This document shows, piece by piece, positions 17,413 to 60,563 of a stretch of 64,000 bases of DNA. The DNA lies in contig JAJVIP010000003.1 in the NCBI GenBank assembly GCA_022072025.1, positions 1 through 64,000 on the forward strand. Direction: 5' to 3'. The first letter of the stretch is position 1, and each line of letters opens with the position of its first letter. Below the pieces are notes generated by a model that saw only the letters and a list, made by a program, of their open reading frames with translations, was not told the origin of the DNA and made no database searches. A program made the translations under genes and the position numbers. The stretch comes from Elusimicrobiota bacterium (GTDB lineage: Bacteria > Elusimicrobiota > Elusimicrobia > F11).

Positions 17413-17832
17413 ATGAAAGAACTCCAGCAGATGGTGGGCGATTGGTTATTGGATCGTCCGACCATGTTAGAAAATAACACTTTTCACTCGGTTGTAGACC
17501 TATTGAGGGGAGAGGTTGACGAACTTGTAGAAGCACACCCAAACGGGGACAACAAAGATATAGCCCAGGAGGTGGCAGATGTGTTTATTTTTGCCTTAAC
17601 CCTCGCAAATATCTTAGGGGTTGATGTAGACGCCGAGGTAAAAGAAAAAATGGCCTACAACTTAGCTCGTTATCCAGCATCTAAATTCCAGAGTGGGAGT
17701 TACCAACAATCTAGAGAAGAGTGTCGAGCGTGGGTTAAAGAGACTGGATGGAAGAAAGAATTTTACTCTATCCCCGAAGAAACTCAAGTATCATCTCCCG
17801 TATCCAGCCAGAAAATGTCTTCCCAAGATTAA
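17413..17832 (+). CDS. MazG-like nucleotide pyrophosphohydrolase
   Basis: LRGEVDELVEA...IAQEVADVFIFALTLANILGVD matches the MazG/HisE all-alpha NTP-PPase signature. Confidence 0.7.
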   Translation: MKELQQMVGDWLLDRPTMLENNTFHSVVDLLRGEVDELVEAHPNGDNKDIAQEVADVFIFALTLANILGVDVDAEVKEKMAYNLARYPASKFQSGSYQQSREECRAWVKETGWKKEFYSIPEETQVSSPVSSQKMSSQD

Positions 17833-17898
17833 GAAGTTTATGTCTAAGAGCTAGATACTCATCCTCTGGGATATAAACAGTTATACGCTTCATTGGTT

Positions 17899-19323
17899 TC
17901 ATAACTGAACGGCCTCAATGGTATTGATAAGAGCGTTTCTATCTTGCTCTAGTAATTTCATTACATCAAATACTTTATCTGAGAATCCAGCCATTGCATA
18001 TACATTCTGTTGTGGGAATTCTAGAGTTCCATATCCCTGGAGATCAAATGAGTAGATCCGAGGGTTGGCACCAGTTCTCTTTTTGTAGTCAGCAAATGCT
18101 TTCTTTGGATCATTCCCCCACATATTATCCCCCGCCCATCCCTGCATATCAGAGAGAATTATAATGCGATCATATGGTTGGTTAGCTTTAAGGAATGGTG
18201 CAGCAAAGTTTGTTCCACCAGATTCAAAATCAAAGCTCTCTGCGATGCTAGTGAGTGAATCTTGGGTGTTAATAGAAACATATTTTGCGTTGTCAGAGAA
18301 AACAATTACATCGGCATTGTTTTTCTTAACTAAAATACTAGCAAAAAGTGAGGCAATCTGGGCTGGACGACCCTCCATAGATCCAGATTTATCCACAATT
18401 ACCAGAGTATCACCATCAAACACAGGCACATTATCTAGAGACATTTCAGCCGCCTTGGAGAGTATTGAGATAATCTTGCGGGCATCTTTACCAGATTCTT
18501 CCTTAAACTGCTCAATGGCTGTTTGGAATCTGAATGGTAGGACTAGGGATTTCTTTTGTAGATCTTTGTCTAGCAATATCTCCCCCGCTTTATCCAACAA
18601 CTCTGGAGCCTGCAACATAATGTTGCGAAGGTTTCTAAGTAAGGCAAAGTATCCAATCTTTTTAGATTCTATTAGTTCTGTCCAGGCTTCTTTCTTGGCT
18701 TCATCTTTGTCTTCAGCAGAACCAGTGGCACTAAGTTTTGCCTCCCAGGTATCAACGGACTTAAGTTTATCTTCTATTAATTTCTTAAGAGCAACTTTAT
18801 TTTTCTCGGTAGGAGTTGGGTGAAGAAGATTAACAGCATCAACTAGGGAGATCTCGTTCCCCTCCCCACGGTACTTAGCAAGCTGATACTCATCAAACTT
18901 CCCAAAAGCCATCCCCAATCCTCTTTTGAGTGAGTTTGGTACTGGTTTGCTATAGTTTGATATATAGTAACTGAGAATTTCTGTAATATCGTCAACGCGG
19001 TGGACAACTTTATTATAGAAATTTTTAGTCCACTTCTCACCCTTAACTTTCTTAGCGATCTCAGCCGCTACGACATGGGAGATTGATCTCATCCCGAATT
19101 CTTGGCGAGCATAGACAGCTGTTTTAGCGGCAAATGTTGGGCTAATTTGATCAAGAAGTTCTTTTACTTTTTCAAGCCCCTCAGATTCTGAGCGGTAATA
19201 TTGATCCTTAACAAAGGAGGTCAGCACCATGGTGGCGAACTGGTACTCTGGGGTCATGACATAGGCATCCCCACCAGCCAAGTTCACGGTAGTGTTTGTT
19301 TGTTTACTATTAAATTTAGTCAT
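17899..19323 (-). CDS. rsr: Ro60/Rsr-like protein (TROVE domain + vWA domain with MIDAS motif)
   Basis: N-terminal VNLAGGDAYVM...YYRSE resembles the TROVE N-terminus. C-terminal VIVDKSGSMEG (DxSxS MIDAS) plus a vWA-like segment. SD AAGGAGG 5 nt before the ATG. Confidence 0.6.
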   Translation of the reverse strand: MTKFNSKQTNTTVNLAGGDAYVMTPEYQFATMVLTSFVKDQYYRSESEGLEKVKELLDQISPTFAAKTAVYARQEFGMRSISHVVAAEIAKKVKGEKWTKNFYNKVVHRVDDITEILSYYISNYSKPVPNSLKRGLGMAFGKFDEYQLAKYRGEGNEISLVDAVNLLHPTPTEKNKVALKKLIEDKLKSVDTWEAKLSATGSAEDKDEAKKEAWTELIESKKIGYFALLRNLRNIMLQAPELLDKAGEILLDKDLQKKSLVLPFRFQTAIEQFKEESGKDARKIISILSKAAEMSLDNVPVFDGDTLVIVDKSGSMEGRPAQIASLFASILVKKNNADVIVFSDNAKYVSINTQDSLTSIAESFDFESGGTNFAAPFLKANQPYDRIIILSDMQGWAGDNMWGNDPKKAFADYKKRTGANPRIYSFDLQGYGTLEFPQQNVYAMAGFSDKVFDVMKLLEQDRNALINTIEAVQL

Positions 19324-19850
19324 AGATCCTCCTTGTTTTTTATCAAACTTTAAATAATGTGGACGAGAAAGCCGAACCGAGTAAACCAGATATAGCTCTA
19401 GTTCAAGCCTGAATTTAACCTCGTCATAGAGGGGTTTCTATAGTTCAAGTACTCTCCCTATAGAGGCGTTGCCTTCCAGATTAACAAAAACCCTTTAAGC
19501 AACTTACAAGTTTGCCCGAGGGCAAACCAATCGTAACCCTTTCGGGTGCAGAGACTGTTTAAGTCGAAGTAACTCAAATTCTTACTGCGTCCACACTGTT
19601 AAAGTTCAAAATATTGCAGAGAAAATTGATAAGAGTGACAATGCGTTCTAACACTGAACTACTGAGCTTTCGCCCAGACAGGAATCTAACCTGTGGCCTC
19701 ACATTCCAAAAATGAAGTAACTCTAGTCTCACTACTGCAATATGTTAATGTTCAAAATGGTAGAGAAAATTTGCGAGAGACTTATTATCGGCGAAGTAAC
19801 TCTCACTTCACTACTACCAAATAACATTATAACATAACAACATAATGTTG
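19324..19850. ncRNA. 527-nt noncoding leader upstream of rsr with 3 tandem degenerate ~78-nt repeats and several hairpins; candidate Y-RNA-like sRNA array
   Basis: No ORF of 60 aa or more. Repeats start at 19566, 19714 and 19793 (GAAGTAACTC...CACTACTGC...GTTCAAAAT...). Hairpins GTTTGCCCGAGGGCAAAC (19520-19537), ACCCTTTCGGGT and TCTATAG...CTATAGA. The CUCACUACUGC string recalls the 3' strand of the Ro-binding stem of vertebrate hY1 (from memory). Confidence 0.3.
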
Positions 19851-21735
<1,885 letters not shown>

Positions 21736-21824: not shown

Positions 21825-22118
21825 TCATAGAACCTTTGCTAAAACATCATGAAACTTAATGAGCTTGAGTTTGTCATCTCCCTGCTCAAAGTCTTTCCCA
21901 ACCCATTTTTCAATGAGAATGGTATCGCCCTTCTGACATGGAGCGTCAAATTCTTTTTCTTCCCAGATACCGACTTCCAGGACTAGCCCCACAACCAAGT
22001 CGCGGTTCTTTTCTTCGTCTGGTAAGTAAATTTTGGGGAGCTTATCATCTTTTTTAAGTTCGATTACTTTTACTAGTACCCCGCCAATGCTGGGTAAAAC
22101 TTTTCCAACAACTTCCAT
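21825..22118 (-). CDS. groES: co-chaperonin GroES/Cpn10-like
   Basis: 97 aa immediately upstream of groEL. GDTILIEKWVG...DDKLKLIKFHDVLAKV resembles the GroES C-terminal half. Confidence 0.5.
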   Translation of the reverse strand: MEVVGKVLPSIGGVLVKVIELKKDDKLPKIYLPDEEKNRDLVVGLVLEVGIWEEKEFDAPCQKGDTILIEKWVGKDFEQGDDKLKLIKFHDVLAKVL

Positions 22119-25373: not shown

Positions 25374-26414
25374 CTATTCTCCATGTTTTAACAAGTACTC
25401 TGGATTAATACATTTGAATGACAGGCGACCAAGATCTGGATCTCGCGTCTCTAAAACTGGGCGGATAACGATTCCCTCTGCCCAAACTTCTGGATTGAGC
25501 TTCGACTTACGAGTAGCCAGGGCGACTAGTTCATCTACGGTACTGGGGAGTTTAAACATAGGATCTACCCATGGTACAGACTTTAATCCCAAATCTATTA
25601 AGATGTCTGCTAAGGTGGGGGAACTAACATACTCTCCAGTTTGCATATCATAAACATTATAAAAAAGGATTCTCTGACCCTTAAGTTTAAGCCTATTGGC
25701 TTGGATACCTTCCCCAATTAGTTCTCCCTGGAGTGCCCAGCGGGAATCTTTTAGTTTTTCTTTGAGTCCCAACTCGTTGGCTACCTTCCAAAAACTGTTT
25801 CCCTCAGACTCTAGGAGGTTGATAGAGCGGGAGCAAACATTTAATTCTCCATCCTTCCAGTATATGGTCACAGAGGATCCATCTACCTTTTCTGTGATAT
25901 AGAAAGTATCAGTTTGATATCTTTCTAGAATCTCTGGACAACCCTGAATTCTAGGCTCATCTGTCTTAGGAATAAAGCTGGGGAATAACCCTTTGGCTAC
26001 GCCAGCTAACTGGGCGGGCATTGGGGGTTCATATTTATGTACGCCAAGAATACCCGTGACATCATCTCCCTCTTGAAGAAAATCTCTTCCAAGAGATTGG
26101 TGGATAACTGTAATGGGTAGACATAATCCTTGGCTAATTTGCCCCCGCAAGCGGATAGTTCTAAGACGGATCCCCTCTTCTTCTGCCCCATCGATTAACA
26201 TTTTTTTGGTACCATTTTTCTTTAAGAACTCATATCTAAAGTCATCGGCGGGCAAGAATGAGTCCACCTCATAATACACACATAAATCCCCAGGTTTGAA
26301 CTCACCCTTCTTTACCACTACATGCCACCCTAGAACAGTAGCCACCTCAATGGCATCTGCTCCCTCAATGGGTTTGATGTCTATAATCTTTTGGACACTA
26401 GCTAGTTTTCTCAT
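25374..26414 (-). CDS. ATP-dependent RNA ligase, DraRnl/Rnl5-like (nick-sealing family)
   Basis: N-terminal KLASVQKIIDIKPIEGADAIEVATVLGWHVVVKKGEFKPGD OB-like domain. Nucleotidyltransferase motif I EKVDGSS, motif IV EGIVIR, motif V FKCINPEY. Confidence 0.6.
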   Translation of the reverse strand: MRKLASVQKIIDIKPIEGADAIEVATVLGWHVVVKKGEFKPGDLCVYYEVDSFLPADDFRYEFLKKNGTKKMLIDGAEEEGIRLRTIRLRGQISQGLCLPITVIHQSLGRDFLQEGDDVTGILGVHKYEPPMPAQLAGVAKGLFPSFIPKTDEPRIQGCPEILERYQTDTFYITEKVDGSSVTIYWKDGELNVCSRSINLLESEGNSFWKVANELGLKEKLKDSRWALQGELIGEGIQANRLKLKGQRILFYNVYDMQTGEYVSSPTLADILIDLGLKSVPWVDPMFKLPSTVDELVALATRKSKLNPEVWAEGIVIRPVLETRDPDLGRLSFKCINPEYLLKHGE

Positions 26415-26679: not shown

Positions 26680-27531
26680 CTATTTAAGTGCTGGTAGGTT
26701 CAACAAAGTTGATCCATTTCCAAGCATATAAACTGGTAGTTTACCATCCCATTTCTCAAGATAGATCTTCTGCAAAAGCTCTGGGGAGATTGTCTCTCTC
26801 TGGAGTCTTTGTGCTTCAGCTTGAGCTTGAGCGTCGGTGATTGCCGCTTGTTTGCGGTAGGTCGCCTGCTCTGCCTTATTCTTTTCAGTGTCAACTTTAA
26901 CAAACTCAATCTGCTTTTGGGAGATTGCATCTGTATAATCTTTGTCAAATCCGAGTTCGCGGATCAACACCGAGTCAAGAATAATACCATTTTCTGCTAA
27001 GACTGCCTGTATAGTTTCAAAAATATCCTTTGCTACCTTTTCACGCCCTGTCCCTACATACAATTCTTCAGCCGAGAAATTGGCTGGAGTTGTACGAGCA
27101 ACACTGCGAGTCTGAGCTCGGATAATCTTGTCTACTAGTGTCTGCTCACTACCAAACTTCTCTACCACCCAAGTTGTCTTGGTTGGATCAATTGAGAAAG
27201 TAATGGTGTAGTACACATTCACTGGTTGACCATCTTTGGTGGTTGTATCTACTGGTCCATCTTTATAGTCAGAATTGGAAGTCTTCATGTCTTCTGGCTT
27301 CATGGTTTCGTAGATCAAGAACTTAGTATTAATATACTTTGTTCCTTCTACAAATGGGGTAATCACGGCGGCTCCTGGTTGGAGAACTCTCCCAGTCACG
27401 GCACCCCACCTTGTTACCACCGCCACCTCACCAGCATCAACTGTGCGGAAACCGAGTAATCCTATGATAAGGATAAATACTCCGATCACTCCTAAACCTA
27501 CTATATTTCGTGCGATTTTTTCTGTGTCCAT
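26680..27531 (-). CDS. SPFH / band-7 (prohibitin/HflK-like) membrane protein
   Basis: N-terminal TM helix, then a typical SPFH core (GEVAVVTRWG...PGAAVITPF...) and a coiled-coil Q/A-rich C-terminus. Confidence 0.7.
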   Translation of the reverse strand: MDTEKIARNIVGLGVIGVFILIIGLLGFRTVDAGEVAVVTRWGAVTGRVLQPGAAVITPFVEGTKYINTKFLIYETMKPEDMKTSNSDYKDGPVDTTTKDGQPVNVYYTITFSIDPTKTTWVVEKFGSEQTLVDKIIRAQTRSVARTTPANFSAEELYVGTGREKVAKDIFETIQAVLAENGIILDSVLIRELGFDKDYTDAISQKQIEFVKVDTEKNKAEQATYRKQAAITDAQAQAEAQRLQRETISPELLQKIYLEKWDGKLPVYMLGNGSTLLNLPALK

Positions 27532-28063: not shown

Positions 28064-28536
28064 TTTACCTCCTCAATTATTGCAGTTACTCCTGATAATA
28101 CTCCCCCATCCCAGTCTGCATTCTTGAGATAAGGAATCACTTTATTGTCGAGGATTCTACCTGCCTCAGCGTCAGTAAGTTTTTCTTCTAGTCCCCTTCC
28201 CACTTCAATCCTAAGTTTGCGGTCAGTAGTAGCGATAAGAAAAATAACTCCATTGTCTTTCCCCTCATATCCTGGCTTCCACGCCTCGGCTAGGTTAATA
28301 GAGTATTCTTCTATGCTCTCTGCCCCCGTGGAGGGGACGGTTACAACGGCTATTTGAGCTTTTTCATCAAACTCTTTGAGCTGATTACTAACCTTAAGCT
28401 CTGTTTCTTCTGAGAGGACATTAGAGGTATCAACCACATAGCCAGTTGGGGAGGGATAGACAGTTTCTGGTAGTTGTATTTGAGTACATCCTCCGAGTAA
28501 TAGTGCTGCAACTAAGACTACTAGTAAGTATTTCAT
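28060..28536 (-). CDS. TPM-domain lipoprotein (DUF477 / TLP18.3-like)
   Basis: Lipobox LLLGGC, then YVVDTSNVLSEETELKVSNQL...IAVVTVPSTG...GVIFLIATTDRKLRIEVGRGLE, typical of TPM domains. Confidence 0.6.
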   Translation of the reverse strand: MKYLLVVLVAALLLGGCTQIQLPETVYPSPTGYVVDTSNVLSEETELKVSNQLKEFDEKAQIAVVTVPSTGAESIEEYSINLAEAWKPGYEGKDNGVIFLIATTDRKLRIEVGRGLEEKLTDAEAGRILDNKVIPYLKNADWDGGVLSGVTAIIEEVK

Positions 28537-29114
28537 TATTTGACCTCCAAGTTAACACTAGGAGCATATTGGGCGTCCTGTGTTTGGATAGTAAATAGTG
28601 GCTTCTCGTCGAAGTTAAACATCCCAGCTAGGAAGTTGGTTGGGAACTTCTTGATATAGATATTAAAGTCTCTGGCGTCCTCATTATAGCGATCTCTGGC
28701 TACAGTGATCCTATTCTCGGTCCCAGCTAGTTCATCCATTAACCCCTGGACAGTTTGATCCGCCTTTAGATTTGGATAGTTTTCCATGATCACCATTAAA
28801 CGAGAGAGAGCTCCTTCAATTTCTCCAGTTGCTTTTATTCTCTCATCTGATCCCTTATTACTATTATCATAGTGAGCACGGGCGTCGGCGATGGCTTTAA
28901 ATACCGCCTGTTCATGAGCCATATACCCTTTAACCGAGTTTGCTAGGTTGGGGATAAGGTCATATCTACGCTGGTATTGGGTTTCTACTTTTGCCCAAGT
29001 AGTAGACACCTCTTCGTTGCGAGTAACCATTGTGTTGTAGGCACCAGAAACCCAGTTAAAAATTATGATTGCGACTAGGGCAATACTCCCTAAAGTTACT
29101 AAAAGTTTATTCAT
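28536..29114 (-). CDS. LemA-family membrane protein
   Basis: N-terminal TM, then YNTMVTRNEEV...W..VETQYQRRYDLIPNL, the LemA signature. Translationally coupled to the TPM gene. Confidence 0.7.
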   Translation of the reverse strand: MNKLLVTLGSIALVAIIIFNWVSGAYNTMVTRNEEVSTTWAKVETQYQRRYDLIPNLANSVKGYMAHEQAVFKAIADARAHYDNSNKGSDERIKATGEIEGALSRLMVIMENYPNLKADQTVQGLMDELAGTENRITVARDRYNEDARDFNIYIKKFPTNFLAGMFNFDEKPLFTIQTQDAQYAPSVNLEVK

Positions 29115-31936: not shown

Positions 31937-32641
31937 TTATCCCTCCTCCTTTATAAGATGTTGTTCTATATACTGTGGAGCTTGATTAAATCTTGGGATA
32001 TGGAGATCAATCTCCCAGTTGTTATAGAATTCGCTCCTTACTACACAAGATCCCCGCTTTAAGTGATCCTCTACATCATTCCAGTTCAGATTTTTGGCGT
32101 GGATTAAATCATGAAGCTTCTGCGAATCTTGTCCAAGAAGATCTTTATGAGAGTATAGACTTTGAGCGAGCATTTGAAGAGAATTTCTTTCTGCGTCCTG
32201 TTGCCTCCATAGGAAGTAGTTGTTAACCTCGTCTTCTGGCAACACAAATACTCTCGCATCAAAAATAGCCTCTCTCCCCATAAATACCGTAAGGGCAGCT
32301 GAAGCATAACCAGCTGAAACAGATACTATCTTTTGGATCTCGTTTCCAAACCACGGCTGACTATCAAACTTTTTATAGTTGTGGAGTAGGAGAGAAATCT
32401 CATCGCTTTGAATGTAGGCGAGTTCAACTCCTTGGAGTTTTTCACAGAGCCTCCTTGCCACTTCTTGCATGTGGGTGGTAAAGCCTAAATCATATGGCTT
32501 CTGAGCCTTATTAAGTAGGGTATGAAAAGCTTTGCCGTCTAAGCGGATAATTACTGGTAGTCGCAGGGGAAGTCTCGTCAGAAAGGGCGATTCATAATTT
32601 TCTTTCATGCGGTTGCCAAGGGATTTCATTTTCTTACGCAC
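31937..32641 (-). CDS. Thg1-like protein (tRNA-His guanylyltransferase family, 3'-5' polymerase)
   Basis: VIIRLDGKAFHTLLNKAQKPYD...MQEVA...ELAYIQSDEISLLL matches the Thg1 active-site region (RxDGxxFH, SDEIS). Confidence 0.75.
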   Translation of the reverse strand: MRKKMKSLGNRMKENYESPFLTRLPLRLPVIIRLDGKAFHTLLNKAQKPYDLGFTTHMQEVARRLCEKLQGVELAYIQSDEISLLLHNYKKFDSQPWFGNEIQKIVSVSAGYASAALTVFMGREAIFDARVFVLPEDEVNNYFLWRQQDAERNSLQMLAQSLYSHKDLLGQDSQKLHDLIHAKNLNWNDVEDHLKRGSCVVRSEFYNNWEIDLHIPRFNQAPQYIEQHLIKEEG

Positions 32642-33240: not shown

Positions 33241-33828
33241 TCATTTTTCTCCTGGAGCATATCCCAAATTAACTTCGGGATGAACCTTTAATGATTGTCC
33301 CACCCATAGAGAGCTCAAAAGCTTAATAAGTTGGTCCCTAGTGGCTTCGTCTTTTTTAATATAACAAACTGTCATGTGTGGCATATATCCAGAGAAGGTA
33401 TCGATGTGTGGGAGGAACTGGAGGCGAGAATGTCCCTCGAGCAATTTCTCGTCTACCTCAATGTGAGCCACAATACAATAGTAGGGTTCATCCTCATAGG
33501 GCGACTCAAAAAACCCAATGTCCTGAATTTTAACTTCGTCAATACTCCAATCCTTTAACACGGCATGAACCTGGTCGGCCCAAGTATGGGCATTTTCCAT
33601 AAGACCGTAAAGGAGAGTAACATGGGCATTCTTTCCTGCTACCCAACCCTTAATCCATTTGCGATCCTCATTTTGGGCGTAGTACAACATCTCTCCATCG
33701 CCCATCCCGTCTATACTCAACATAGAATCTAGTGGTTCTAGATCTAACATTACACATCCTAATCGATCAACATTTACATTTAAATCTTTATATATACCTT
33801 CGAACATGTGAGAGTTAAGTTGTGGCAT
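33241..33828 (-). CDS. 2H-phosphoesterase superfamily protein (LigT/ThpR-like 2',3'-cyclic phosphodiesterase)
   Basis: Two HxTx motifs, NAHVTLLYG and MPHMTVCYI, about 85 residues apart. This is the defining signature of the 2H fold. Confidence 0.55.
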   Translation of the reverse strand: MPQLNSHMFEGIYKDLNVNVDRLGCVMLDLEPLDSMLSIDGMGDGEMLYYAQNEDRKWIKGWVAGKNAHVTLLYGLMENAHTWADQVHAVLKDWSIDEVKIQDIGFFESPYEDEPYYCIVAHIEVDEKLLEGHSRLQFLPHIDTFSGYMPHMTVCYIKKDEATRDQLIKLLSSLWVGQSLKVHPEVNLGYAPGEK

Positions 33829-34933: not shown

Positions 34934-35794
34934 CTAGAAATCACCGTAGTCAACTTGTAGACAAGTTAGCCCCAGCGATCTCCACATATCAACCACCTGT
35001 TGGCGATCATCTAAAACAAATAGGACATTATATTTTCCCTTAATCTCAGCGTCATAAATTTCTTTTTTAATAATATTGTCGGTGCGATGATCCCCAGTTT
35101 TTCTCATAAAGAGGGAGATACGATCATCTAAAACAGAATGTTTGGCTAACCAGCGAACTGTTGGTTCACGATCTTTATCCTCTCTTCCAGAAAGATAGAT
35201 CGGGCGGACCCATTGTTTAGCATAATATGTTTTGAGAATATTTATTATTGGTTCGTTTGGCAAATCGTTCTCGCAAGTGGATGCGTCATAAGGATCACGA
35301 CCATTCCCTAGTGCGATGGTCCCATCTAGGTCACAAATGATAACTGTCGCCAGAGCAGGATCGAATGTGGGGCGTTCTACGGCTCTAAATTCTAGTTGAC
35401 GAGCCATCCTTCGGATCACCTTACTACCGACTGAATTTGGGCGGAGCAGATCCCTCTCTATACATGTTTCAACGGGGACATTGGTAAAGTCTTGAGTTTC
35501 AACCTCAGCATTATATTTGGCGGCAATTCTCCACATAGTATTTTTATGTTTACTATGTAGATTTGTATCATCCACAATTATGTCATGACCGCCCTTTAGA
35601 GATTCTTCTACAATAAAATCACGAACTTTCAAAACAAATTCTTCCCGCCCCTTTGAATGTACACCGACATGAAGCATGTCCCGCAAACTATCTTTATTAA
35701 CTCTAACTGTGTTGGGGTTTTGGGTTTGGTACTCTCTCGCCCAAGTTGTTTTACCAGAACCTGGAAGTCCTTTTGTCAATATAATCTTATTCAT
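34934..35794 (-). CDS. pnkp: polynucleotide 5'-kinase / 3'-phosphatase (T4 Pnkp-like)
   Basis: N-terminal P-loop kinase (GLPGSGKTT) and C-terminal HAD phosphatase (ICDLDGTIA, DxDGT motif I). Same domain order as T4 Pnkp. Confidence 0.8.
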   Translation of the reverse strand: MNKIILTKGLPGSGKTTWAREYQTQNPNTVRVNKDSLRDMLHVGVHSKGREEFVLKVRDFIVEESLKGGHDIIVDDTNLHSKHKNTMWRIAAKYNAEVETQDFTNVPVETCIERDLLRPNSVGSKVIRRMARQLEFRAVERPTFDPALATVIICDLDGTIALGNGRDPYDASTCENDLPNEPIINILKTYYAKQWVRPIYLSGREDKDREPTVRWLAKHSVLDDRISLFMRKTGDHRTDNIIKKEIYDAEIKGKYNVLFVLDDRQQVVDMWRSLGLTCLQVDYGDF

Positions 35795-36676: not shown

Positions 36677-37747
36677 TCATGCTACCGCCTCAGATTGTTG
36701 TTTAAATGGTCGCTCTGCCACGGGGCGAAGCTTCTTCCATATCATATGTGCATAGGGACGCTTATCAAGCATAGAGAATAAGATTGGGGCATACTCTCCA
36801 TCTTTCATAAACTCCATAGCTAGTGTCTTGCGATCTTTCACTCCACTACCAGTAGTGGTTATAAAAAGTGTTTTAGCTATTTGATCAATGGTATTATATT
36901 GGAGAATAAGGTTGTCGGCCGTATCTTTTACCCAGTGGTAAAACTCTTCTGGGACTCTTTCCATCAACTCTCCGAGGTCTTGCCCGTTACGAAGGAGATC
37001 CCAAATAGTCTTTTTATTCACCCCAGTTAATAGTCTGTGTAGGCGTACATATTCGTCAAACTTAAACTTAGTCCTCATCCCCGATTGGAAGCGGATAACA
37101 AACCCTTCACTGTCATTTTTTTGGATTGCCTTAATCTTTTCTAGATCATTTAACCCATCATATCTGCGTACTATTTTCATTTTCCCCGAAAACGCCATCT
37201 GTAGTGTCTCATATGGTACTTCTACACCATCCCTAGTGTTAAAGGCTGTGAGAAGATATAGATCTCTATCTAATCCATAATTAACTACAATCCTATTTTC
37301 TGGATAGATAATTTCGAACAAGTATGTGTATTCTGGGTTAAATTCTACTTGAGAATATTTTTCCTGAAGCATTTTATTCGCCTCAATAGCTTGGTCACTC
37401 TCAAAAGATCCCCGCGTGGCGATAAAGGGTTTCCCCCCAACAAAGTACATAATCCCAAGCGATCCATCCATCTTCTCAAATACTTCGAATGGCTCTGTAA
37501 GTGGTAATTTGGGTAAACCGTTATTTTCTTGATGTTCAGATAAGTTCCAGAACTTCTGGAATGGCCTGGCAACAACCTGGTTGGAAGCGTCCATAATAAG
37601 ACCCCGACAGGTAATTGTCTCGGGAGTCCAAACTTTATCAAATTGAGCTTTTTGGGAATAGTTATAAATCCACAATTCTTCGGTGGGGTGTTTTGTTTTA
37701 TCTATATACTTCTGGTCTATCAACTCTTGTAGTCGAGCGAGATCCAT
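36677..37747 (-). CDS. ATP-dependent RNA ligase (Rnl1/RnlA-like)
   Basis: Motif I EKMDGSLG (KxDG), motif IV EGFVIR, motif V KFKFDEY. 356 aa. Confidence 0.6.
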   Translation of the reverse strand: MDLARLQELIDQKYIDKTKHPTEELWIYNYSQKAQFDKVWTPETITCRGLIMDASNQVVARPFQKFWNLSEHQENNGLPKLPLTEPFEVFEKMDGSLGIMYFVGGKPFIATRGSFESDQAIEANKMLQEKYSQVEFNPEYTYLFEIIYPENRIVVNYGLDRDLYLLTAFNTRDGVEVPYETLQMAFSGKMKIVRRYDGLNDLEKIKAIQKNDSEGFVIRFQSGMRTKFKFDEYVRLHRLLTGVNKKTIWDLLRNGQDLGELMERVPEEFYHWVKDTADNLILQYNTIDQIAKTLFITTTGSGVKDRKTLAMEFMKDGEYAPILFSMLDKRPYAHMIWKKLRPVAERPFKQQSEAVA

Positions 37748-39473: not shown

Positions 39474-39794
39474 TTAACTATTAGCTATTTCCAATAGCAC
39501 ATCGGCGTGACACGGCTTGTCTAGGGGACACCAACAGGCCAGGTTGAATCCCCTTAAATCTCTTTTCGCCGCCTGAGAGCGGGTACATGATGTGTCATAT
39601 GCTTGGTCGTGTACTCCTGACATAAGCCATTCTTTATATTTAGCTATCGCCCCTCCCCTACCCAAAACCATAATTCCATTAATTCTATCTCCTTCTTTAT
39701 ATGGGTTTCCCCAGAAGGTTGGTCTTCCTACATAAATTGTATTTGGTGGCATTTTCCACCCCTTAGTGCGTTTACGCTGTACTCGAATCGGCAT
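39474..39794 (-). CDS. DUF4326-like protein
   Basis: YVGRPTFWGNPY...KYKEWL...LRGFNLACWCPLDKPCHADVLLE matches the DUF4326 pattern (GNPf...CwC...CHadvL). Confidence 0.4.
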   Translation of the reverse strand: MPIRVQRKRTKGWKMPPNTIYVGRPTFWGNPYKEGDRINGIMVLGRGGAIAKYKEWLMSGVHDQAYDTSCTRSQAAKRDLRGFNLACWCPLDKPCHADVLLEIANS

Positions 39795-40578
39795 GGATCA
39801 TCTCCATAACTTCATATAATAATTTATTTATTTTAATTCGATTATTTGTATCTGGGATTGTAGAAATTTGATACTCATATTCAAATTTTTGGAAGAGTTG
39901 TTCGGCGAGAGCTTTAACCTGATCTAAACTATATTCTCCGAGCTTAATATCTATTAATTCTTGTCTATCTTCAGTCCGATACACAATCGGAGCACCATCT
40001 CGGAGAAATTCTATCCCCATTTTGAGTAGTCTAACAAGATGGGAAGCATTTTTACTATCATATCCGATTAGATCTACCATTTTTTTTCTCTTTTCGCCCA
40101 TATATCCCCGATATGGGTTAGATTCATTCATTCTTTTGAGCTGAGCCCTAGCATATCCCCCAAAACAGTTGTAAACTAGGTTTTTAGAAACAAAAAGGTG
40201 GCGGTTATCAATCACATACTGCCAAACGGGGGAGATATTAATATAATCCTCTTTCCGCATATAAAGTGTATTGATTACATTGGGGTTCATCCCGCTCAAA
40301 AGCACAAACATTTTGTGGAGCTCATATCCCACCTCATCAATCGCATCTTGTTTAACTTCGTATGTTTCTTTGGCATGGGCATACCCCTCTAGGGTATAGT
40401 AATATTGTTTGGGATAAGCGAATACGGAAATGGTGTCTATGTCATCTGTCCCCCATTTTTCCTCTGGTGGAACATATAAGTTGTGAGCGTGAGATCCCCG
40501 ATATGCAAGCATAAGGGGTATTTTCTCAAACATTTTATTATAAATGCTTTCTGGTTTGCCCAATCTTTCCCTGACCAT
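39772..40578 (-). CDS. Pol-beta superfamily nucleotidyltransferase
   Basis: YRGSHAHNLYVPPEEKWGTDDIDTISV fits the hG[GS]x(9-13)Dh[DE]h signature. 268 aa. Confidence 0.4.
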   Translation of the reverse strand: MVRERLGKPESIYNKMFEKIPLMLAYRGSHAHNLYVPPEEKWGTDDIDTISVFAYPKQYYYTLEGYAHAKETYEVKQDAIDEVGYELHKMFVLLSGMNPNVINTLYMRKEDYINISPVWQYVIDNRHLFVSKNLVYNCFGGYARAQLKRMNESNPYRGYMGEKRKKMVDLIGYDSKNASHLVRLLKMGIEFLRDGAPIVYRTEDRQELIDIKLGEYSLDQVKALAEQLFQKFEYEYQISTIPDTNNRIKINKLLYEVMEMIHADSSTA

Positions 40579-52838: not shown

Positions 52839-52909
52839 GGCCAGCTAGTTCAGTGGTAGAACATCGGTGTTACATACCGACTATGAGGGTTCGATTCCTT
52901 CGCAGGCCA
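52839..52909 (+). tRNA. tRNA-Val (anticodon UAC)
   Basis: Manual cloverleaf: acceptor GGCCAGC/GCAGGCC (one A-A mismatch), D-arm GUUC-AGUGGUA-GAAC, anticodon stem UCGGU/ACCGA with loop GUUACAU, T-arm GAGGG-UUCGAUU-CCUUC. Confidence 0.55.
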
Positions 52910-53335
52910 CATCGGATACTTAGGAGAGGGTCTTACTGGCCGTAAGCACTTAACCTCTAAGTTGATTAAGCTAACCCGCGTGGAGGCGGTCCATCCCAAC
53001 TGTTTGGACGCTCCCTTGCTAGACTAGGAAGCATGAGCGGTGGAAGGTGTTAAGACCGAAATTGCTAATCAGCTACCTTCGCCTGAGTATCGGATCGCTT
53101 TAGGTCGGGGGGAAACTAGACTGAGTTTTCTCGAGTCTGATATAGCCCCCCGCCCATTTTTCCGAGCTCAGTGGGTGAAAGACACTCGTATGCTAGAGGG
53201 CTATGGAATGTAAGTGGGAATCCAGAAGAGTCCCCTTTTCCTGAAGTGTGGTGCTGGCCGTCGCCTTCCGAGCTAACACCCTTGCTCCTATGAGGAACGC
53301 AGGGTAATGGTAAGTTCTCTAGCACACCCGCACTA
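52910..53335 (+). other. 426-nt noncoding, highly structured spacer inside the tRNA array (unknown RNA element)
   Basis: No credible ORF. Hairpins CCGC-GUGGAG-GCGG and GUCCA...UGGAC. A long composite hairpin GGUCGGGGGG-AAACU-[AGACUGAG-UUUU-CUCGAGUCU]-GAUAUAG-CCCCCCGCC sits near 53115-53170. Confidence 0.3.
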
Positions 53336-53414
53336 GGCGATATGGTGAAATGGTAGACACGCCTGCCTTAAGAGCAGGTCCGCAAGGGTAAAGGTCCGAG
53401 TCCTTTTATCGCCA
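53336..53414 (+). tRNA. tRNA-Leu (anticodon UAA), type II
   Basis: Acceptor GGCGAUA/UAUCGCC, anticodon stem CCUGC/GCAGG with loop CUUAAGA, long variable arm, T-arm AAAGG-UCCGAGU-CCUUU, discriminator A. Confidence 0.65.
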
Positions 53415-53418
53415 CCTC

Positions 53419-53492
53419 GGGCGACTACCCCAATTGGTAGAGGGAACGGTTTTAGAAACCGTGTAGTCAGAGTTCGAATCTCTGGTTGCCCA
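53419..53492 (+). tRNA. tRNA with anticodon UAG (Leu by code) but short class-I variable arm
   Basis: Acceptor GGGCGAC/GUUGCCC (G5-U68 wobble), anticodon stem ACGGU/ACCGU with loop UUUAGAA, 5-nt variable loop, T-arm CAGAG-UUCGAAU-CUCUG. Confidence 0.5.
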
Positions 53493-53497
53493 CATTT

Positions 53498-53568
53498 AGA
53501 TCTCTAGCTCAATGGTAGAGCTGTCGGCTTATACCCGACTGACAGAGGTTCGATTCCTTTGAGATCTA
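53498..53568 (+). tRNA. tRNA-Ile (anticodon UAU), A1-U72
   Basis: Acceptor AGAUCUC/GAGAUCU, D-arm GCUC-AAUGGUA-GAGC, anticodon stem GUCGG/CCGAC with loop CUUAUAC, T-arm AGAGG-UUCGAUU-CCUUU. Confidence 0.55.
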
Positions 53569-53572
53569 CAGA

Positions 53573-53644
53573 GTTCCTATAGTTCAATGGATAGAATAAT
53601 TCCCTTCTAAGGAATAGATTCGGGTTCAAGTCCTGGTGGGAACA
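53573..53644 (+). tRNA. tRNA-Arg (anticodon UCU)
   Basis: Acceptor GUUCCUA/UGGGAAC, anticodon stem AUUCC/GGAAU with loop CUUCUAA, T-loop UUCAAGU. Confidence 0.55.
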
Positions 53645-53680
53645 CTTGTTTCAGTAAAGCAAGTATGTCATAATATATTT

Positions 53681-54091
53681 ATGACAAATTCAAATGAATA
53701 TATGAGGGGATATCTTAAAAAGAGATATCATTCTCGCCGAGAAGGGGCTGTCAAACTTCTGGGGGGATGTTGTTCAAAATGTGGATCTCTAAAAAAATTA
53801 GAACTTGATCATAAAGACTATACAAAAAAATCTTTTGATATTTCTAAGTTGTGGAATATATCTTATATAAAATATAATGAGGAAATAAAAAAATGTCAAT
53901 TATTATGTAAATCTTGTCATATTAAAAAAACAAGAGAAGATTTAGGACAAGAAAACGCAAGAGAAACCCATGGAACCTTATCCGCATGGAGATATTGTAA
54001 GTGTCAATTGTGCCGAGAGGCATTTAATAAATATATGAGAGAATATAAAAGCAGGGTTCATAGCAAAGTGGCTACTGCACTCGCCTCTTAA
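53681..54091 (+). CDS. HNH endonuclease inserted in the tRNA array
   Basis: ELDHKDYTKKSFDISKLWN...LLCKSCHIKKT HNH core with CCSKCG zinc knuckle. Very AT-rich. The track ORF 53636..54091 overlaps the upstream tRNA-Arg and the downstream tRNA-Lys by about 38 nt. Confidence 0.65.
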   Translation: MTNSNEYMRGYLKKRYHSRREGAVKLLGGCCSKCGSLKKLELDHKDYTKKSFDISKLWNISYIKYNEEIKKCQLLCKSCHIKKTREDLGQENARETHGTLSAWRYCKCQLCREAFNKYMREYKSRVHSKVATALAS

Positions 54092-54126
54092 GCGAGATAT
54101 CGACAGTTCGATTCTGTCTGAGCCCA
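54054..54126 (+). tRNA. tRNA-Lys (anticodon CUU)
   Basis: Acceptor GGGUUCA/UGAGCCC (U4-G69 wobble), anticodon stem CUCGC/GCGAG with loop CUCUUAA, T-arm GACAG-UUCGAUU-CUGUC. Confidence 0.55.
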
Positions 54127-54130
54127 CATT

Positions 54131-54207
54131 GGGGTTGTAGCATAGTGGCCTATTGCATCCGCCCTTTAAGCGGAACATCGGTGGTCCGAATCCACCCAGC
54201 CCCACCA
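54131..54207 (+). tRNA. tRNA-Lys-like (anticodon UUU) with C at position 33, CCA encoded
   Basis: Acceptor GGGGUUG/CAGCCCC, anticodon stem UCCGC/GCGGA with loop CCUUUAA (C33 is unusual), T-arm GGUGG-UCCGAAU-CCACC, 3' ACCA encoded. Confidence 0.45.
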
Positions 54208-54209
54208 AT

Positions 54210-54281
54210 GGCCCTGTCGTCTATCGGCTAGGACACCAGGTTTTCATCCTGGTAAGTAGGGTTCAATTCCCTACAGGGTCA
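54210..54281 (+). tRNA. tRNA-Glu (anticodon UUC)
   Basis: Acceptor GGCCCUG/CAGGGUC, D-arm GUCU-AUCGGCUA-GGAC, anticodon stem CCAGG/CCUGG with loop UUUUCAU, T-arm UAGGG-UUCAAUU-CCCUA. Confidence 0.6.
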
Positions 54282-54287
54282 CAAGTT

Positions 54288-54361
54288 CATCCGTTGGCCA
54301 AGCAGTAAGGCGACTGTTTGCAGAACAGTTATCACAGGTGCAAATCCTGTACGGATGTCCA
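54288..54361 (+). tRNA. tRNA-Cys (anticodon GCA), CCA encoded
   Basis: Acceptor CAUCCGU/ACGGAUG, anticodon stem ACUGU/ACAGU with loop UUGCAGA, T-arm ACAGG-UGCAAAU-CCUGU, 3' UCCA. Confidence 0.5.
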
Positions 54362-54368
54362 ATAAATT

Positions 54369-54440
54369 GGTAGAGCCGTCGCGAAGTCGAGACGCCTGTT
54401 TGAAGCACAGGAGAAGTGGGAGCATTACCTACCTCTACCA
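54369..54440 (+). tRNA. degenerate tRNA-like gene (anticodon GAA, Phe) lacking canonical D-loop GG and T-loop TPsiC
   Basis: Acceptor GGUAGAG/CUCUACC perfect, anticodon stem CCUGU/ACAGG with loop UUGAAGC, but D-arm GUC-GCGAAGUCGA-GAC and T-arm GUGGG-AGCAUUA-CCUAC are non-canonical. Confidence 0.35.
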
Positions 54441-54441
54441 C

Positions 54442-54512
54442 TGTGCCTTAGTTCAACGGTAGAATACTGCTCTGATAAAGCGGGGACATAAGTTCAACTC
54501 TTTTAGGCACAA
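54442..54512 (+). tRNA. tRNA-Ile (anticodon GAU), U1-A72
   Basis: Acceptor UGUGCCU/AGGCACA, D-arm GUUC-AACGGUA-GAAU, anticodon stem CUGCU/AGCGG with loop CUGAUAA, T-loop UUCAACU. Confidence 0.5.
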
Positions 54513-54562
54513 CTCATTTCAGAAAAGACAGAAAAAGTGCCTTTAAGTGAAATGAGAATCGT

Positions 54563-54638
54563 GGTGGTATTGATGTAGCGGTAGTCATACTTGGCTGTGA
54601 ACCAAGAAGAGACAGTTCAACTCTGTCATACCACCCCA
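54563..54638 (+). tRNA. tRNA-His (anticodon GUG) with genomically encoded G-1 opposite C73 and encoded CCA
   Basis: G-1 at 54563, acceptor GUGGUAU/AUACCAC, anticodon stem CUUGG/CCAAG with loop CUGUGAA, T-arm GACAG-UUCAACU-CUGUC, 3' C-CCA. Confidence 0.65.
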
Positions 54639-54669
54639 TAGTATGCTAGAATTGGGAAAAAGGAGGAAT

Positions 54670-55098
54670 ATGATTGTATACACGGGCGGGACTTTTGACT
54701 TGTTTCATTGGGGACATATTAATTTTCTTAAAGAGTGTAGAAAATTGGCGGGACCCGAAGGAAAAGTATGGGTAGCTCTCAACACAGATGAGTTTGTTCT
54801 TAGGTATAAACAACAGAAAACTGTGTTTACTTTGGTTGAGCGGAAATTAATGCTTGAAGCGAGTGGTTTGGTGGATAAAGTAATCACCAATATCGGGGAC
54901 GAAGATTCTAAACCAGCCATCGAACATGTTCGTCCAAATATTGTCGCAATTTCCTCTGATTGGGCACGCCGAGACTACTATGGACAAATGAGGTTTACTC
55001 AAGACTGGCTAGATGAGCGGGGTATAATTCTTGCCTACATCCCCCACACTAAGGGAATCTCCTCAACAGAGATCAGATATAGGCTAAAGGCGGTGTAG
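54670..55098 (+). CDS. cytidylyltransferase-family nucleotidyltransferase (TagD-like, HxGH motif)
   Basis: GGTFDLFHWGHINFLKECRKL...ALNTDEFV...ISSDWARRDYYGQ...YIPHTKGISSTEIRYRL parallels glycerol-3-phosphate cytidylyltransferase TagD. SD AAAGGAGG before the ATG at 54670 (track start is 54643). Confidence 0.65.
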   Translation: MIVYTGGTFDLFHWGHINFLKECRKLAGPEGKVWVALNTDEFVLRYKQQKTVFTLVERKLMLEASGLVDKVITNIGDEDSKPAIEHVRPNIVAISSDWARRDYYGQMRFTQDWLDERGIILAYIPHTKGISSTEIRYRLKAV

Positions 55099-55159
55099 TG
55101 TAGTGGTAGCACAATGGGTTCTCAGCCCATTATCTGGAGTTCGAATCTCCACGCCGTCA
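55089..55159 (+). tRNA. tRNA-Glu (anticodon CUC)
   Basis: Acceptor GGCGGUG/CGCCGUC (two G-U wobbles), D-arm GUGU-AGUGGUA-GCAC, anticodon stem AUGGG/CCCAU with loop UUCUCAG, T-arm UGGAG-UUCGAAU-CUCCA. Confidence 0.6.
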
Positions 55160-55216
55160 CAGTTGATTTTTTAGTCAAAATATGCTAAAATAATACGCCA
55201 TAGGGGAGATTTATAT

Positions 55217-60243: not shown

Positions 60244-60297
60244 TTACTACGAGAGAGTATTTTATATATTTATATATAAAATACTCTCTCGTAGTAA
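60244..60297. repeat. 54-bp near-perfect palindrome (25-bp arms, 4-nt centre)
   Basis: TTACTACGAGAGAGTATTTTATATA-ttta-TATATAAAATACTCTCTCGTAGTAA. Immediately preceded by a second palindrome TCCTAATATTAGGA (60228-60241). Lies at the convergence of + genes and the - tRNA array. Confidence 0.6.
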
Positions 60298-60304
60298 GGG
60301 TTTG

Positions 60305-60385
60305 CGGAGGGTATAGGAGTTGAACCTATTACGCCTTTCGGCGACGGGTTAGCGACCCGTTGTATTACCGTCCTACCCACCCTCC
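60305..60385 (-). tRNA. tRNA-Ser (anticodon GCU), type II, C33
   Basis: Acceptor GGAGGGU/ACCCUCC, anticodon stem ACGGG/CCCGU with loop UCGCUAA, long variable stem CGCC-GAAA-GGCG, T-loop UUCAACU. Confidence 0.55.
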
Positions 60386-60389
60386 AGAG

Positions 60390-60471: not shown

Positions 60472-60475
60472 AATG

Positions 60476-60559: not shown

Positions 60560-60563
60560 AATG

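What the first reader, a model, noticed from the sequence alone, without database searches (positions are those of the whole stretch)
17899..19850. Ro60/Rsr-like TROVE+vWA protein with a 527-nt structured, repeat-bearing leader: candidate phage Y-RNA locus
ORF 17899..19323 (-) has a TROVE-like N-terminus (NLAGGDAYV...YYRSE) and a vWA MIDAS motif (VIVDKSGSMEG). Bacterial rsr genes are typically flanked by Y RNA genes. The adjacent 19324..19850 region has no ORF and contains three tandem degenerate ~78-nt units (starts 19566, 19714, 19793; core GAAGTAACTC...CACTACTGC...GTTCAAAAT...) plus perfect hairpins (GTTTGCCCGAGGGCAAAC, ACCCTTTCGGGT, TCTATAG..CTATAGA). The string CUCACUACUGC matches the 3' strand of the Ro-binding stem of human Y1 RNA as I remember it. 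Ro60 with Y RNAs scaffolds 3'-5' exoribonucleases in bacteria, so in a phage that also carries tRNA arrays and repair enzymes this could be a structured-RNA quality-control or trimming module. I could not find the canonical GGUCCGA/UUGAC Ro-binding helix, so the RNA identity is unresolved.
Basis: partly seen in the sequence, partly recalled or inferred. Interest (0 to 1): 0.85.

Follow-up and report, generated by a model that had tools for sequence, protein, structure and literature searches.

The report
Phage Ro60 gene with Y RNAs
A phage carries a Ro60 (Rsr) RNA-binding protein gene preceded by three small Y RNAs, one of which mimics a tRNA. This is a real but ordinary example of a system already described in bacteria and phages.

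Summary
ORF 17899-19323(-) is a Ro60/Rsr protein: it matches TROVE and the Ro60-type vWA domain, keeps the MIDAS DxSxS motif, and its predicted fold matches only solved Ro60 structures.

The 527-nt "leader" appears to be three Y-type RNAs on the rsr strand, behind a perfect sigma-70 promoter (19854-19826).
- Unit A (19822-19755) is a short hairpin Y RNA. It scores 52.7 bits, E=9e-12, against a model built only from other loci.
- Unit B (19743-19611) is a YrlA-type Y RNA with the permuted tRNA-like V-T-acceptor-D arms. It scores 98.3 bits, E=1e-21, on an independent clade model, but only 32.3 bits on Rfam YrlA (threshold 69).
- Unit C (about 19604-19348) has the same closing stem around a roughly 180-nt lineage-specific insert and ends 14 nt before the rsr ribosome-binding site. 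It is the least certain.

The human-Y1 string lies antisense to the RNA.

All 306 clade-model hits in 153 related rsr loci lie on the rsr strand, nearly all upstream of rsr, in arrays of up to six. YrlA next to phage Ro60 was published in 2014, so this is a new member of a known kind.

The parts
19826..19854 (-). Sigma-70-type promoter: -35 TTGACA (19854-19849), 17-nt spacer, extended -10 TGTTATAAT (19834-19826). The predicted start is about 19820-19818, at the first bases of unit A.
   Evidence: One search gives 12 of 12 consensus matches with a TG extension. The promoter is conserved in relative L002. Activity was not tested.
19755..19822 (-). Unit A, a short hairpin Y RNA (YrlB-like, about 68 nt). 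It has basal helix UGGUAG/CUACCA, loop GUAGUGA opposite UUUUCUC, a second helix GAGAG/CUCUC, and GUUACUUC.
   Evidence: Model R1, built from 24 short units of other loci with the window excluded, gives 52.7 bits, E=9e-12, full length. R2 gives 54.5 bits. The fold is -18.1 kcal/mol, z=-2.7. Unit A is absent from relative L002.
19611..19743 (-). Unit B, a YrlA-type Y RNA (about 133 nt).
- Basal helix: 19741-19735 with 19619-19613.
- GUAGUGAG: 19735-19728.
- Second helix: 19727-19721 with 19635-19629.
- GUUACUUC: 19721-19714.
- V arm: about 19714-19700.
- T arm: 19694-19678.
- Closed acceptor-like hairpin with GAAA loop: 19677-19662.
- D arm: 19659-19645.
   Evidence: Rfam YrlA gives 32.3 bits, E=4.5e-5. 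Independent clade model R2 gives 98.3 bits, E=1e-21. In the 24-sequence alignment 91.6% of cells are paired, against 65.6% when shuffled, and 23 of 30 pairs change on both sides. L002 shows compensatory changes. The tertiary pair 19:56 covaries.
19348..19604 (-). Unit C, a large Y-like RNA (about 257 nt).
- 5' strand GUGGACGCAGUAAGAAUUUGAGUUACUUC: 19596-19566.
- 10-bp closing helix: 19597-19588 with 19365-19356.
- Second helix: 19581-19572 with 19382-19371.
- 3' strand: CUUUCUCGUCCAC.
- These enclose a roughly 180-nt insert with hairpins ACCCGAAAGGGU, GUUUGCCCUCGGGCAAAC and UCUAUAG..CUAUAGA.
   Evidence: The 5'-half profile hit has E=0.0054 and is one of only three hits below 5 in the window. 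One search reports the long-range inverted repeat (I2). The two-sequence consensus keeps both helices with compensatory changes. The fold is -87.8 kcal/mol, z=-5.1. Neither covariance model detects it, and the insert is found only in L002. This is the least certain part.
19328..19334 (-). Ribosome-binding site AAGGAGG of rsr, 4 nt before the ATG at 19323 and 14 nt after the end of unit C.
   Evidence: Sequence read directly. Conserved in L002.
17899..19323 (-). rsr, a Ro60 ortholog of 474 aa: TROVE HEAT-repeat ring plus a vWA domain with MIDAS motif DKSGS.
   Evidence: Pfam TROVE 71.3 bits and vWA_Ro60 36.2 bits. PDB sequence match to Thermus phage phiLo Ro60 at E=1.3e-23. AlphaFold model with pLDDT 84. 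The top 13 Foldseek hits are all Ro60 structures, TM 0.65-0.74.
17768..17902 (-). 44-aa ORF whose start overlaps the rsr stop (ATGA), probably co-transcribed. It may be a ribbon-helix-helix-like protein.
   Evidence: One search lists the ORF. One search gives only a weak NikA-like match (20.4 bits, below the cutoff of 27). Its role is unknown.

Best explanation
This appears to be a phage Ro60/Y RNA operon. One strong promoter probably drives a single transcript carrying three Y-type RNAs followed by the rsr mRNA.

Each RNA is closed by pairing of its own 5' and 3' ends. Each presents the same internal loop and helix (5' GUAGUGA...GAGUUACUUC, 3' ...CUC...UUUUCUC), which is the likely docking site for the Ro60 ring. 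By analogy with M. smegmatis, host nucleases would cut the precursor between units at the conserved spacer UUUGAACNUUAACA, and bound Rsr would protect the mature RNAs.

Unit B carries a circularly permuted tRNA-like module with V, T, closed acceptor and D arms. In characterised systems the Y RNA tethers Ro60 to the 3'-5' exoribonuclease PNPase, so that structured RNAs are threaded through the ring and degraded. The phage version most likely recruits the host PNPase in the same way.

What is shown: the protein's identity, the RNA architecture, its covariation, and its position and strand. What is inferred from homologous systems: co-transcription, processing, Rsr binding and PNPase recruitment.
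For: **Protein.** TROVE and vWA_Ro60 both exceed the Pfam cutoffs. The closest solved relative is phage phiLo Ro60. The predicted fold matches only Ro60 structures.

**RNA.**
- Rfam YrlA hits 19610-19741(-) at E=4.5e-5.
- Models built only from other loci score unit B at 98.3 bits and unit A at 52.7 bits. Nothing outside this locus scores comparably in 64 kb: the short-unit model's next hit has E=0.52, and the YrlA model's other hits are weak partial matches (at most 32 bits) on the window's tRNA genes.
- Covariation is strong in both family alignments. The score is 0.741 against 0.236 shuffled for the YrlA type, and 0.856 against 0.207 for the short units.
- Relative L002 (Rsr 79% identical) has compensatory changes in the basal helix, V arm and D arm.
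- The elbow tertiary pair G19:C56 becomes U:A in the window and A:U in L002.

**Context.**
- The promoter matches the consensus at 12 of 12 positions, and no terminator is predicted before rsr.
- In 73 metagenome loci and 80 species genomes, all 306 hits of the clade YrlA model lie on the rsr strand, and nearly all lie upstream of rsr.

**Precedents.** YrlA was reported next to rsr in 254 bacteria and 22 phages, and two Y RNAs are processed from one precursor upstream of rsr in M. smegmatis (PMC4201824). In phage phiLo, Ro60, two upstream Y-like RNAs and host PNPase form a complex (PMC12135203).
Against: - No expression data exist. Transcript ends, processing and Rsr binding are all unobserved.
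- Rfam's curated YrlA threshold is not reached (32.3 against 69 bits).
- The published GNCGAA(N)G motif is present only as the variant GUAGUGA(A/G).
- Unit C is not detected by either covariance model. It rests on a marginal 5'-half profile hit, helix complementarity and a single relative.
- No PNPase gene was identified among the window proteins scanned, so the effector is assumed to be the host's.
Confidence: 0.88

Rival explanations
1. Part of the region, above all unit C, is a cis-acting 5' leader of the rsr mRNA and not a free RNA. Rsr would bind the Y-like stem that ends 14 nt before its own ribosome-binding site and so control its own translation or mRNA stability.
For: - No terminator lies between the units and rsr.
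- The closing helix of unit C ends at 19348, next to the RBS at 19334-19328.
- Unit C is unusually large and strongly folded, with z=-5.1.
- It is retained in L002, while unit A is not.
Against: - In related loci the last Y unit often lies close to the rsr start as well (several matches end within about 10 nt of it), and those units are ordinary short or tRNA-like ones.
- In M. smegmatis, upstream Y RNAs are released from the precursor (PMC4201824).
- This reading is compatible with the main explanation and does not replace it.
Confidence: 0.2
2. The repeats act at the DNA level, as operator or iteron-like protein-binding sites between two genes, and the RNA folds are incidental.
For: The 11-nt core occurs three times within 260 bp. 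A small DNA-binding-like ORF follows rsr (weak).
Against: - Base pairing, not sequence, is what is conserved. Most helix pairs change on both sides across loci.
- All hits share the rsr strand.
- The core always sits at a fixed distance within a helix-loop-helix RNA architecture.
Confidence: 0.03
3. Unit B is a decayed tRNA gene or tRNA fragment left over from the phage's tRNA arrays.
For: The Rfam tRNA model gives a weak partial match (18.7 bits, E=0.44). The clade YrlA model cross-hits real tRNA genes weakly.
Against: - ARAGORN calls no tRNA here.
- The arms are in permuted order, with T before D.
- The acceptor stem is closed by a GAAA loop.
- The termini form a long Y-type stem.
- The architecture is conserved with covariation beside rsr in 150+ loci.
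Confidence: 0.02

Closest known systems
YrlA-type bacterial and phage Y RNAs (Rfam RF02553; Chen et al. 2014, PMC4201824)
   Same: - Encoded just upstream of rsr on the same strand.
- 5' and 3' ends pair into a long stem with an internal loop.
- Four stem-loops in the order V, T, acceptor-like, D mimic a permuted tRNA.
- More than one Y RNA per locus.
- Already reported in 22 phages.
   Different: - Scores only 32.3 bits on the Rfam model (threshold 69).
- The presumed Ro-binding motif is GUAGUGA(A/G), not GNCGAA(N)G.
- It belongs to a subfamily marked by the nearly invariant GUUACUUC and UUUUCUC.
- The elbow pair 19:56 is U:A instead of G:C.
Thermus phage phiLo Ro60 with Yrl1 and Yrl2 (PMC12135203; PDB 9KOP, 9L5Y)
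   Same: A phage Ro60 with Y-like RNAs directly upstream. It is the closest solved homolog (E=1.3e-23; about 24% identity in the Foldseek structure alignment). It is the precedent for recruiting host PNPase.
   Different: - The protein is distant.
- phiLo has two RNAs, identified through a CGAA motif.
- This window has three.
- One of the three has a full tRNA-like module.
- One has a roughly 180-nt insert.
M. smegmatis YrlA/YrlB and S. Typhimurium rsr-yrlBA-rtcBA locus
   Same: - Y RNAs lie upstream of rsr and are processed from one precursor.
- A tRNA-like Y RNA is accompanied by a short hairpin Y RNA.
- The locus is associated with RNA-repair enzymes.
   Different: - Here the repair genes are T4-type (Rnl ligases, PNKP) plus Thg1-like, a 2H phosphoesterase and RlaP, not RtcB/RtcA. 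They lie 6-20 kb away and are not in the same operon.
- The 6-bp acceptor hairpin is shorter than the 7 bp that allows RNase P cleavage in M. smegmatis.
Metazoan Y RNAs (Rfam RF00019, e.g. human Y1)
   Same: The overall logic is the same: a stem formed by the RNA's two ends that binds Ro60. The sense RNA shares the strings GGUAGU/GUAGUGA and GAGUUA with the 5' strand of human Y1 (GGUAGUGAGUUAUC).
   Different: There is no covariance-model match at E<=10 and no GGUCCGA bulged helix. The shared string falls in the upper stem of Y1, not in its Ro-binding site, so the resemblance is probably chance.

Membership tests
Ro60/Rsr protein | TROVE (HEAT-repeat ring) domain above the Pfam curated cutoff | tested here: met
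   PF05731 scores 71.3 bits against a cutoff of 23, E=1.2e-19.
Ro60/Rsr protein | C-terminal Ro60-type vWA domain with MIDAS motif DxSxS | tested here: met
   PF25045 scores 36.2 bits against a cutoff of 27.7. In VDKSGSM, D311, S313 and S315 are invariant across 41 homologs.
Ro60/Rsr protein | Overall fold matches solved Ro60 rings | tested here: met
   The AlphaFold model has pLDDT 84.3 and pTM 0.80. Foldseek's top 13 PDB hits are all Ro60 (phiLo, human, D. radiodurans 2NVO, Xenopus 1YVP), with TM 0.65-0.74 over the full length.
Ro60/Rsr protein | Binds Y RNA and misfolded RNA | not testable with these tools
   Needs co-immunoprecipitation or gel-shift assays.
YrlA Y RNA (RF02553) | Score at or above the Rfam gathering threshold | tested here: not met
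   32.3 bits against 69. E=4.5e-5 in the 701-nt scan. Absent from the whole-window gathering scan.
YrlA Y RNA (RF02553) | Encoded within 4 kb of rsr on the same strand (criterion of Chen et al. 2014) | tested here: met
   Unit B ends 288 nt upstream of the rsr ATG, on the same strand.
YrlA Y RNA (RF02553) | Terminal stem plus four stem-loops in the order V, T, acceptor-like, D (permuted tRNA mimic) | tested here: met
   - The independent clade model gives 98.3 bits, E=1e-21, full length.
- Five helices are 91.6% paired, and 23 of 30 pairs change on both sides.
- The V arm shows two compensatory changes against L002.
- The tertiary pair 19:56 covaries.
YrlA Y RNA (RF02553) | GNCGAA(N)G motif near the 5' end (proposed Rsr contact) | tested here: inconclusive
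   The window has GUAGUGAG (B), GUAGUGAA (A) and GCAGUAAG (C) at that position. The clade consensus is GUAG(C/U)GA, so only part of the motif is shared.
YrlA Y RNA (RF02553) | Stable RNA bound by Rsr in vivo | not testable with these tools
   No transcript or binding data are available.
Short hairpin Y RNA (YrlB / Yrn2-like) | Long hairpin carrying the same Ro-binding stem, encoded beside rsr together with a tRNA-like Y RNA | tested here: met
   Unit A scores 52.7 bits, E=9e-12, on a model of 24 short units from other loci. That family is 95.6% paired, with covariation 0.856 against 0.207 shuffled.
Metazoan Y RNA (RF00019) | Covariance-model match and the GGUCCGA bulged helix | tested here: not met
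   No hit at E<=10 on either strand. The helix is absent from the sequence.
tRNA | Cloverleaf with an open acceptor stem, detected by tRNA finders | tested here: not met
   ARAGORN finds none at this site. The Rfam tRNA model gives 18.7 bits against a threshold of 29, and only a partial match.

The most novel reading that the evidence does not exclude
The phage Ro60/Y RNA particle could be one arm of a phage-borne RNA damage-control system, working with the nearby tRNA-repair genes (two RNA ligases, PNKP, Thg1-like enzyme, 2H phosphoesterase, RlaP), 21 tRNAs and a tmRNA to survive host anticodon-nuclease defences.

Within that reading, the 257-nt unit C would be a new class of large Y RNA with two roles. 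It would act as a Ro60-sensing leader that couples Y RNA processing to rsr translation. It would also carry a lineage-specific effector-docking module in place of the tRNA mimic.
Probability: 0.15. Interest if true: 0.6.

Novelty: new member of a known kind. Interest (0 to 1): 0.3.

Why it matters
It adds a well-supported Ro60/Y RNA locus from a tRNA-rich phage whose contig NCBI labels as an Elusimicrobia MAG with the gene as "hypothetical".

It also has a practical consequence. A large, widespread subfamily of YrlA-type and short Y RNAs is missed by Rfam's YrlA threshold. Its hallmarks are GUAG(C/U)GA, GUUACUUC and UUUUCUC, and it occurs in arrays of up to six upstream of rsr in Bacteroidota, Verrucomicrobiota, Chloroflexota and phages.

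The two clade models built here could annotate these RNAs. The double substitutions at the tRNA-elbow pair 19:56 are direct evolutionary evidence that the L-shaped tRNA mimic is functional. None of this changes the current picture of what Ro60 and Y RNAs are.

Tried and rejected
- The whole-window Rfam scan at gathering thresholds found only tRNAs and the tmRNA.
- Tandem Repeats Finder found no tandem array in the leader.
- A viral-contig scan with the protein found no relative.
- An Rfam scan of the huge-phage relative LR745206 (L001) gave only chance snoRNA-like hits. The clade models later found one short Y-like unit there, at 29-32 bits.
- My first script for closing helices was too permissive. 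Decoys closed in 71 of 104 cases against 99 real ones, so I dropped it in favour of covariance models.
- nhmmer with unit C found its insert only in L002.
- The 3'-half profile is T-rich and uninformative (unit C E=41).
- Neither covariance model spans unit C.
- I first took the hairpin between GUUACUUC and the T arm for a novel anticodon-like arm. It is the V arm already described by Chen et al. 2014.
- I rejected the human-Y1 string as evidence, because it lies on the wrong strand and has no model support.
Full report
**What is there.** ORF 17899..19323 on the minus strand encodes 474 aa.
- It matches Pfam TROVE (71.3 bits, E=1.2e-19) and the Ro60-specific vWA domain (36.2 bits). Both exceed the curated cutoffs.
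- The MIDAS motif DxSxS (VDKSGSM) is invariant across 41 homologs.
- The best solved relative by sequence is the Ro60 of Thermus phage phiLo (E=1.3e-23, residues 12-467).
- An AlphaFold model (pLDDT 84.3, pTM 0.80) has only Ro60 structures as its top 13 PDB matches: phiLo, human, D. radiodurans Rsr and Xenopus, with TM 0.65-0.74.

The protein is a Ro60/Rsr ortholog.

**The setting is a phage.** The window encodes a tape-measure protein, a minor tail protein, a siphovirus tail protein, an XkdF-like protease, Erf and an amidase. NCBI holds the identical protein as a hypothetical protein of an "Elusimicrobia bacterium" MAG. About 100 deposited phage genomes carry Ro60 homologs. The best of these is a 634-kb uncultured phage at 51% identity.

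**The upstream region.** On the minus strand a perfect sigma-70 promoter is found: TTGACA, a 17-nt spacer, then TGTTATAAT (19854-19826, 12 of 12 matches). No intrinsic terminator is predicted before rsr.

It is not a tandem repeat. Read on the minus strand, each copy is the end of a shared 5' strand (basal helix, then G(U/C)AGU(G/A)A, then GAGUUACUUC). Each is matched further downstream by a shared 3' strand (CUC, then UUUUCUC, then the complement of the basal helix).

**Unit B is a YrlA-type Y RNA.** A permissive Rfam scan of 19250-19950 returns two hits. YrlA matches 19610-19741(-) at 32.3 bits, E=4.5e-5, below the gathering score of 69. A weak partial tRNA match lies inside it.

I fetched 80 metagenomic loci encoding Rsr proteins 52-62% identical, plus a closer relative, L002, at 79%. 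GTTACTT recurs one to six times within about 500 nt upstream of rsr on the same strand in most of these loci.
- *Covariation.* I aligned 24 tRNA-like units and imposed a five-helix structure. Cells are 91.6% paired, against 65.6% when shuffled and about 45% when the partner columns are slid. Pairs changing on both sides number 23 of 30. The covariation score is 0.741 against 0.236.
- *Independent model.* A covariance model built from 22 of these units, with the window and L002 excluded, scores unit B at 98.3 bits, E=1e-21, full length at 19743-19611.
- *Closest relative.* Against L002 the basal helix changes from UUGCAG/CUGCAA to UGGUAG/CUACCA. The V-arm stem changes from CAU/AUG to CGC/GCG. 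The D stem changes from GUUC/GAAC to GUCU/GGAC.
- *Tertiary pair.* At the tRNA-elbow pair 19:56, 20 of the 22 other units have G:C and the other two look like one-column alignment shifts. The window has U:A and L002 has A:U. This argues that the L-shaped tRNA mimic is under selection.
- *Architecture.* The arm order V, T, closed acceptor-like, D is exactly the YrlA architecture of Chen et al. 2014.

**Unit A is a short hairpin Y RNA.** I aligned 24 short units (65-80 nt) from other loci. They are 95.6% paired, with covariation 0.856 against 0.207. The model built from them scores 19822-19755(-) at 52.7 bits, E=9e-12. Unit B gets a local match (24.7 bits), and nothing else in the 64 kb scores below E=0.5. 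L002 lacks unit A but keeps the promoter.

**Unit C is the least certain.**
- *For.* Its 5' strand is the third and last significant hit of a 5'-half profile in the whole window. The E-values are 7.9e-6 for B, 1.5e-4 for A and 5.4e-3 for C; the next hit is at 5.3. A 10-bp helix AGUGUGGACG/CGUCCACAUU joins 19597-19588 to 19365-19356 (I2). The 3' strand reads CUUUCUC immediately before that helix. A second helix, GAAUUUGAGU/ACUCGGUUC, is kept in L002 with UG-to-AU and UG-to-UA changes. The 262-nt stretch folds at -87.8 kcal/mol, z=-5.1.
- *Against.* Neither covariance model spans it, and its roughly 180-nt insert has a detectable relative only in L002.
- *Context.* The clade YrlA model matched stretches of 190-230 nt in other loci, so long units may not be unique to this lineage. 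Their insert content was not examined.
- *Position.* Unit C ends 14 nt before the rsr Shine-Dalgarno sequence.

**How typical this is.**
- The short-unit model gives 129 hits in 75 loci.
- The YrlA model gives 132 hits in 73 metagenome loci.
- The YrlA model gives 174 hits in 80 species-representative genomes.
- These genomes include Saprospiraceae, Chitinophagales and Verrucomicrobiota (among them the isolate Prosthecobacter fluviatilis), Chloroflexota and Patescibacteria bins.
- Every hit is on the rsr strand and nearly all lie upstream of rsr. Arrays of three to six units are common (for example L016, L021, L023, L087).

A three-unit array is therefore ordinary for this clade.

**Mechanism.** The following are shown: protein identity, RNA architecture with covariation, promoter consensus, and conserved position and strand. 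The remaining steps are inferred from characterised systems.
1. One transcript is made and is cut between units. The spacer UUUGAACNUUAACA recurs at the A-B and B-C junctions and in L002.
2. Rsr binds at the GUAGUGA/UUUUCUC loop-helix and stabilises the RNAs.
3. The complex tethers the host PNPase so that structured RNA is degraded.

The window also holds a dense RNA-repair toolkit, 21 tRNAs and a tmRNA. This parallels the bacterial linkage of rsr with RNA-repair genes. Any functional connection is speculative.

**Comparison with the known, and verdict.** YrlA RNAs beside Ro60 were reported in 254 bacteria and 22 phages, usually with a second Y RNA (PMC4201824). A phage Ro60 with two upstream Y-like RNAs and host PNPase has been studied structurally (PMC12135203). 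This locus is a new member of that kind. It belongs to a divergent subfamily that Rfam's threshold misses, and it has a motif variant (GUAGUGA instead of GNCGAA).

The details of strand, repeat structure and Y1 homology are not. The novelty is modest.

Noticed in passing
window 25374-26414(-), 31937-32641(-), 33241-33828(-), 34934-35794(-), 36677-37747(-), 39772-40578(-): A dense RNA-repair toolkit:
- an RNA ligase with a PHA02142 OB domain;
- a Thg1-like tRNA-His guanylyltransferase;
- a 2H/2'-5' RNA ligase superfamily protein;
- PNKP kinase-phosphatase;
- a T4 Rnl1-type RNA ligase;
- an RlaP nucleotidyltransferase.

The set looks like a counter-measure to host anticodon nucleases.
   Followed up: partly
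window 52839-55160(+), 60304-61424(-), 62051-62434(+): Two tRNA arrays totalling 21 tRNA genes, plus a tmRNA gene at 74.6 bits.
   Followed up: no
window 20137-21732(-) and 21825-22118(-): Phage-encoded GroEL (531 aa) and GroES (97 aa) lie immediately upstream of the Y RNA promoter.
   Followed up: no
window 19851-20171(-): A 106-aa ORF with a Cys/His-rich, HNH-like sequence and no Pfam match. Its start overlaps the groEL 3' end, and its stop codon lies inside the -35 box of the Y RNA promoter.
   Followed up: no
whole window / protein P0001: NCBI holds the identical Rsr protein as a hypothetical protein of an 'Elusimicrobia bacterium' MAG on a 104-kb contig. The gene content here is phage-like, with tail, tape-measure and Erf genes. 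The contig is probably a mis-binned phage or a prophage.
   Followed up: partly
L087, L084, L094, L099, L122 (genome contigs): Close Rsr homologs with Y RNA arrays of up to six units sit on short contigs binned as Patescibacteria/Saccharibacteria, and even as Nanoarchaeia. These may also be phage or mis-binned DNA.
   Followed up: no
window 19597-19623 and 19743-19769 (+ strand coordinates): The inter-unit spacer UUUGAAC(A/U)UUAACA is repeated after unit A and after unit B, and is conserved in L002. It is a candidate processing site.
   Followed up: partly
window 19530-19540(-) within unit C: The single-stranded 11-mer UUACGAUUGGU lies between two hairpins of the unit C insert. It is identical in L002, although the flanking hairpins have diverged. 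Its role is unknown.
   Followed up: no
window 60245-60296: A 52-nt AT-rich palindrome next to the minus-strand tRNA array scored weakly on both strands with the short Y RNA model (E about 0.5-0.8). This is probably a chance hairpin or a terminator.
   Followed up: no
window 17413-17832(+), 26680-27531(-), 28536-29114(-): A MazG-like pyrophosphohydrolase converges on the rsr operon and is also next to rsr in L002. An SPFH/Band-7 protein and a LemA protein lie nearby.
   Followed up: no
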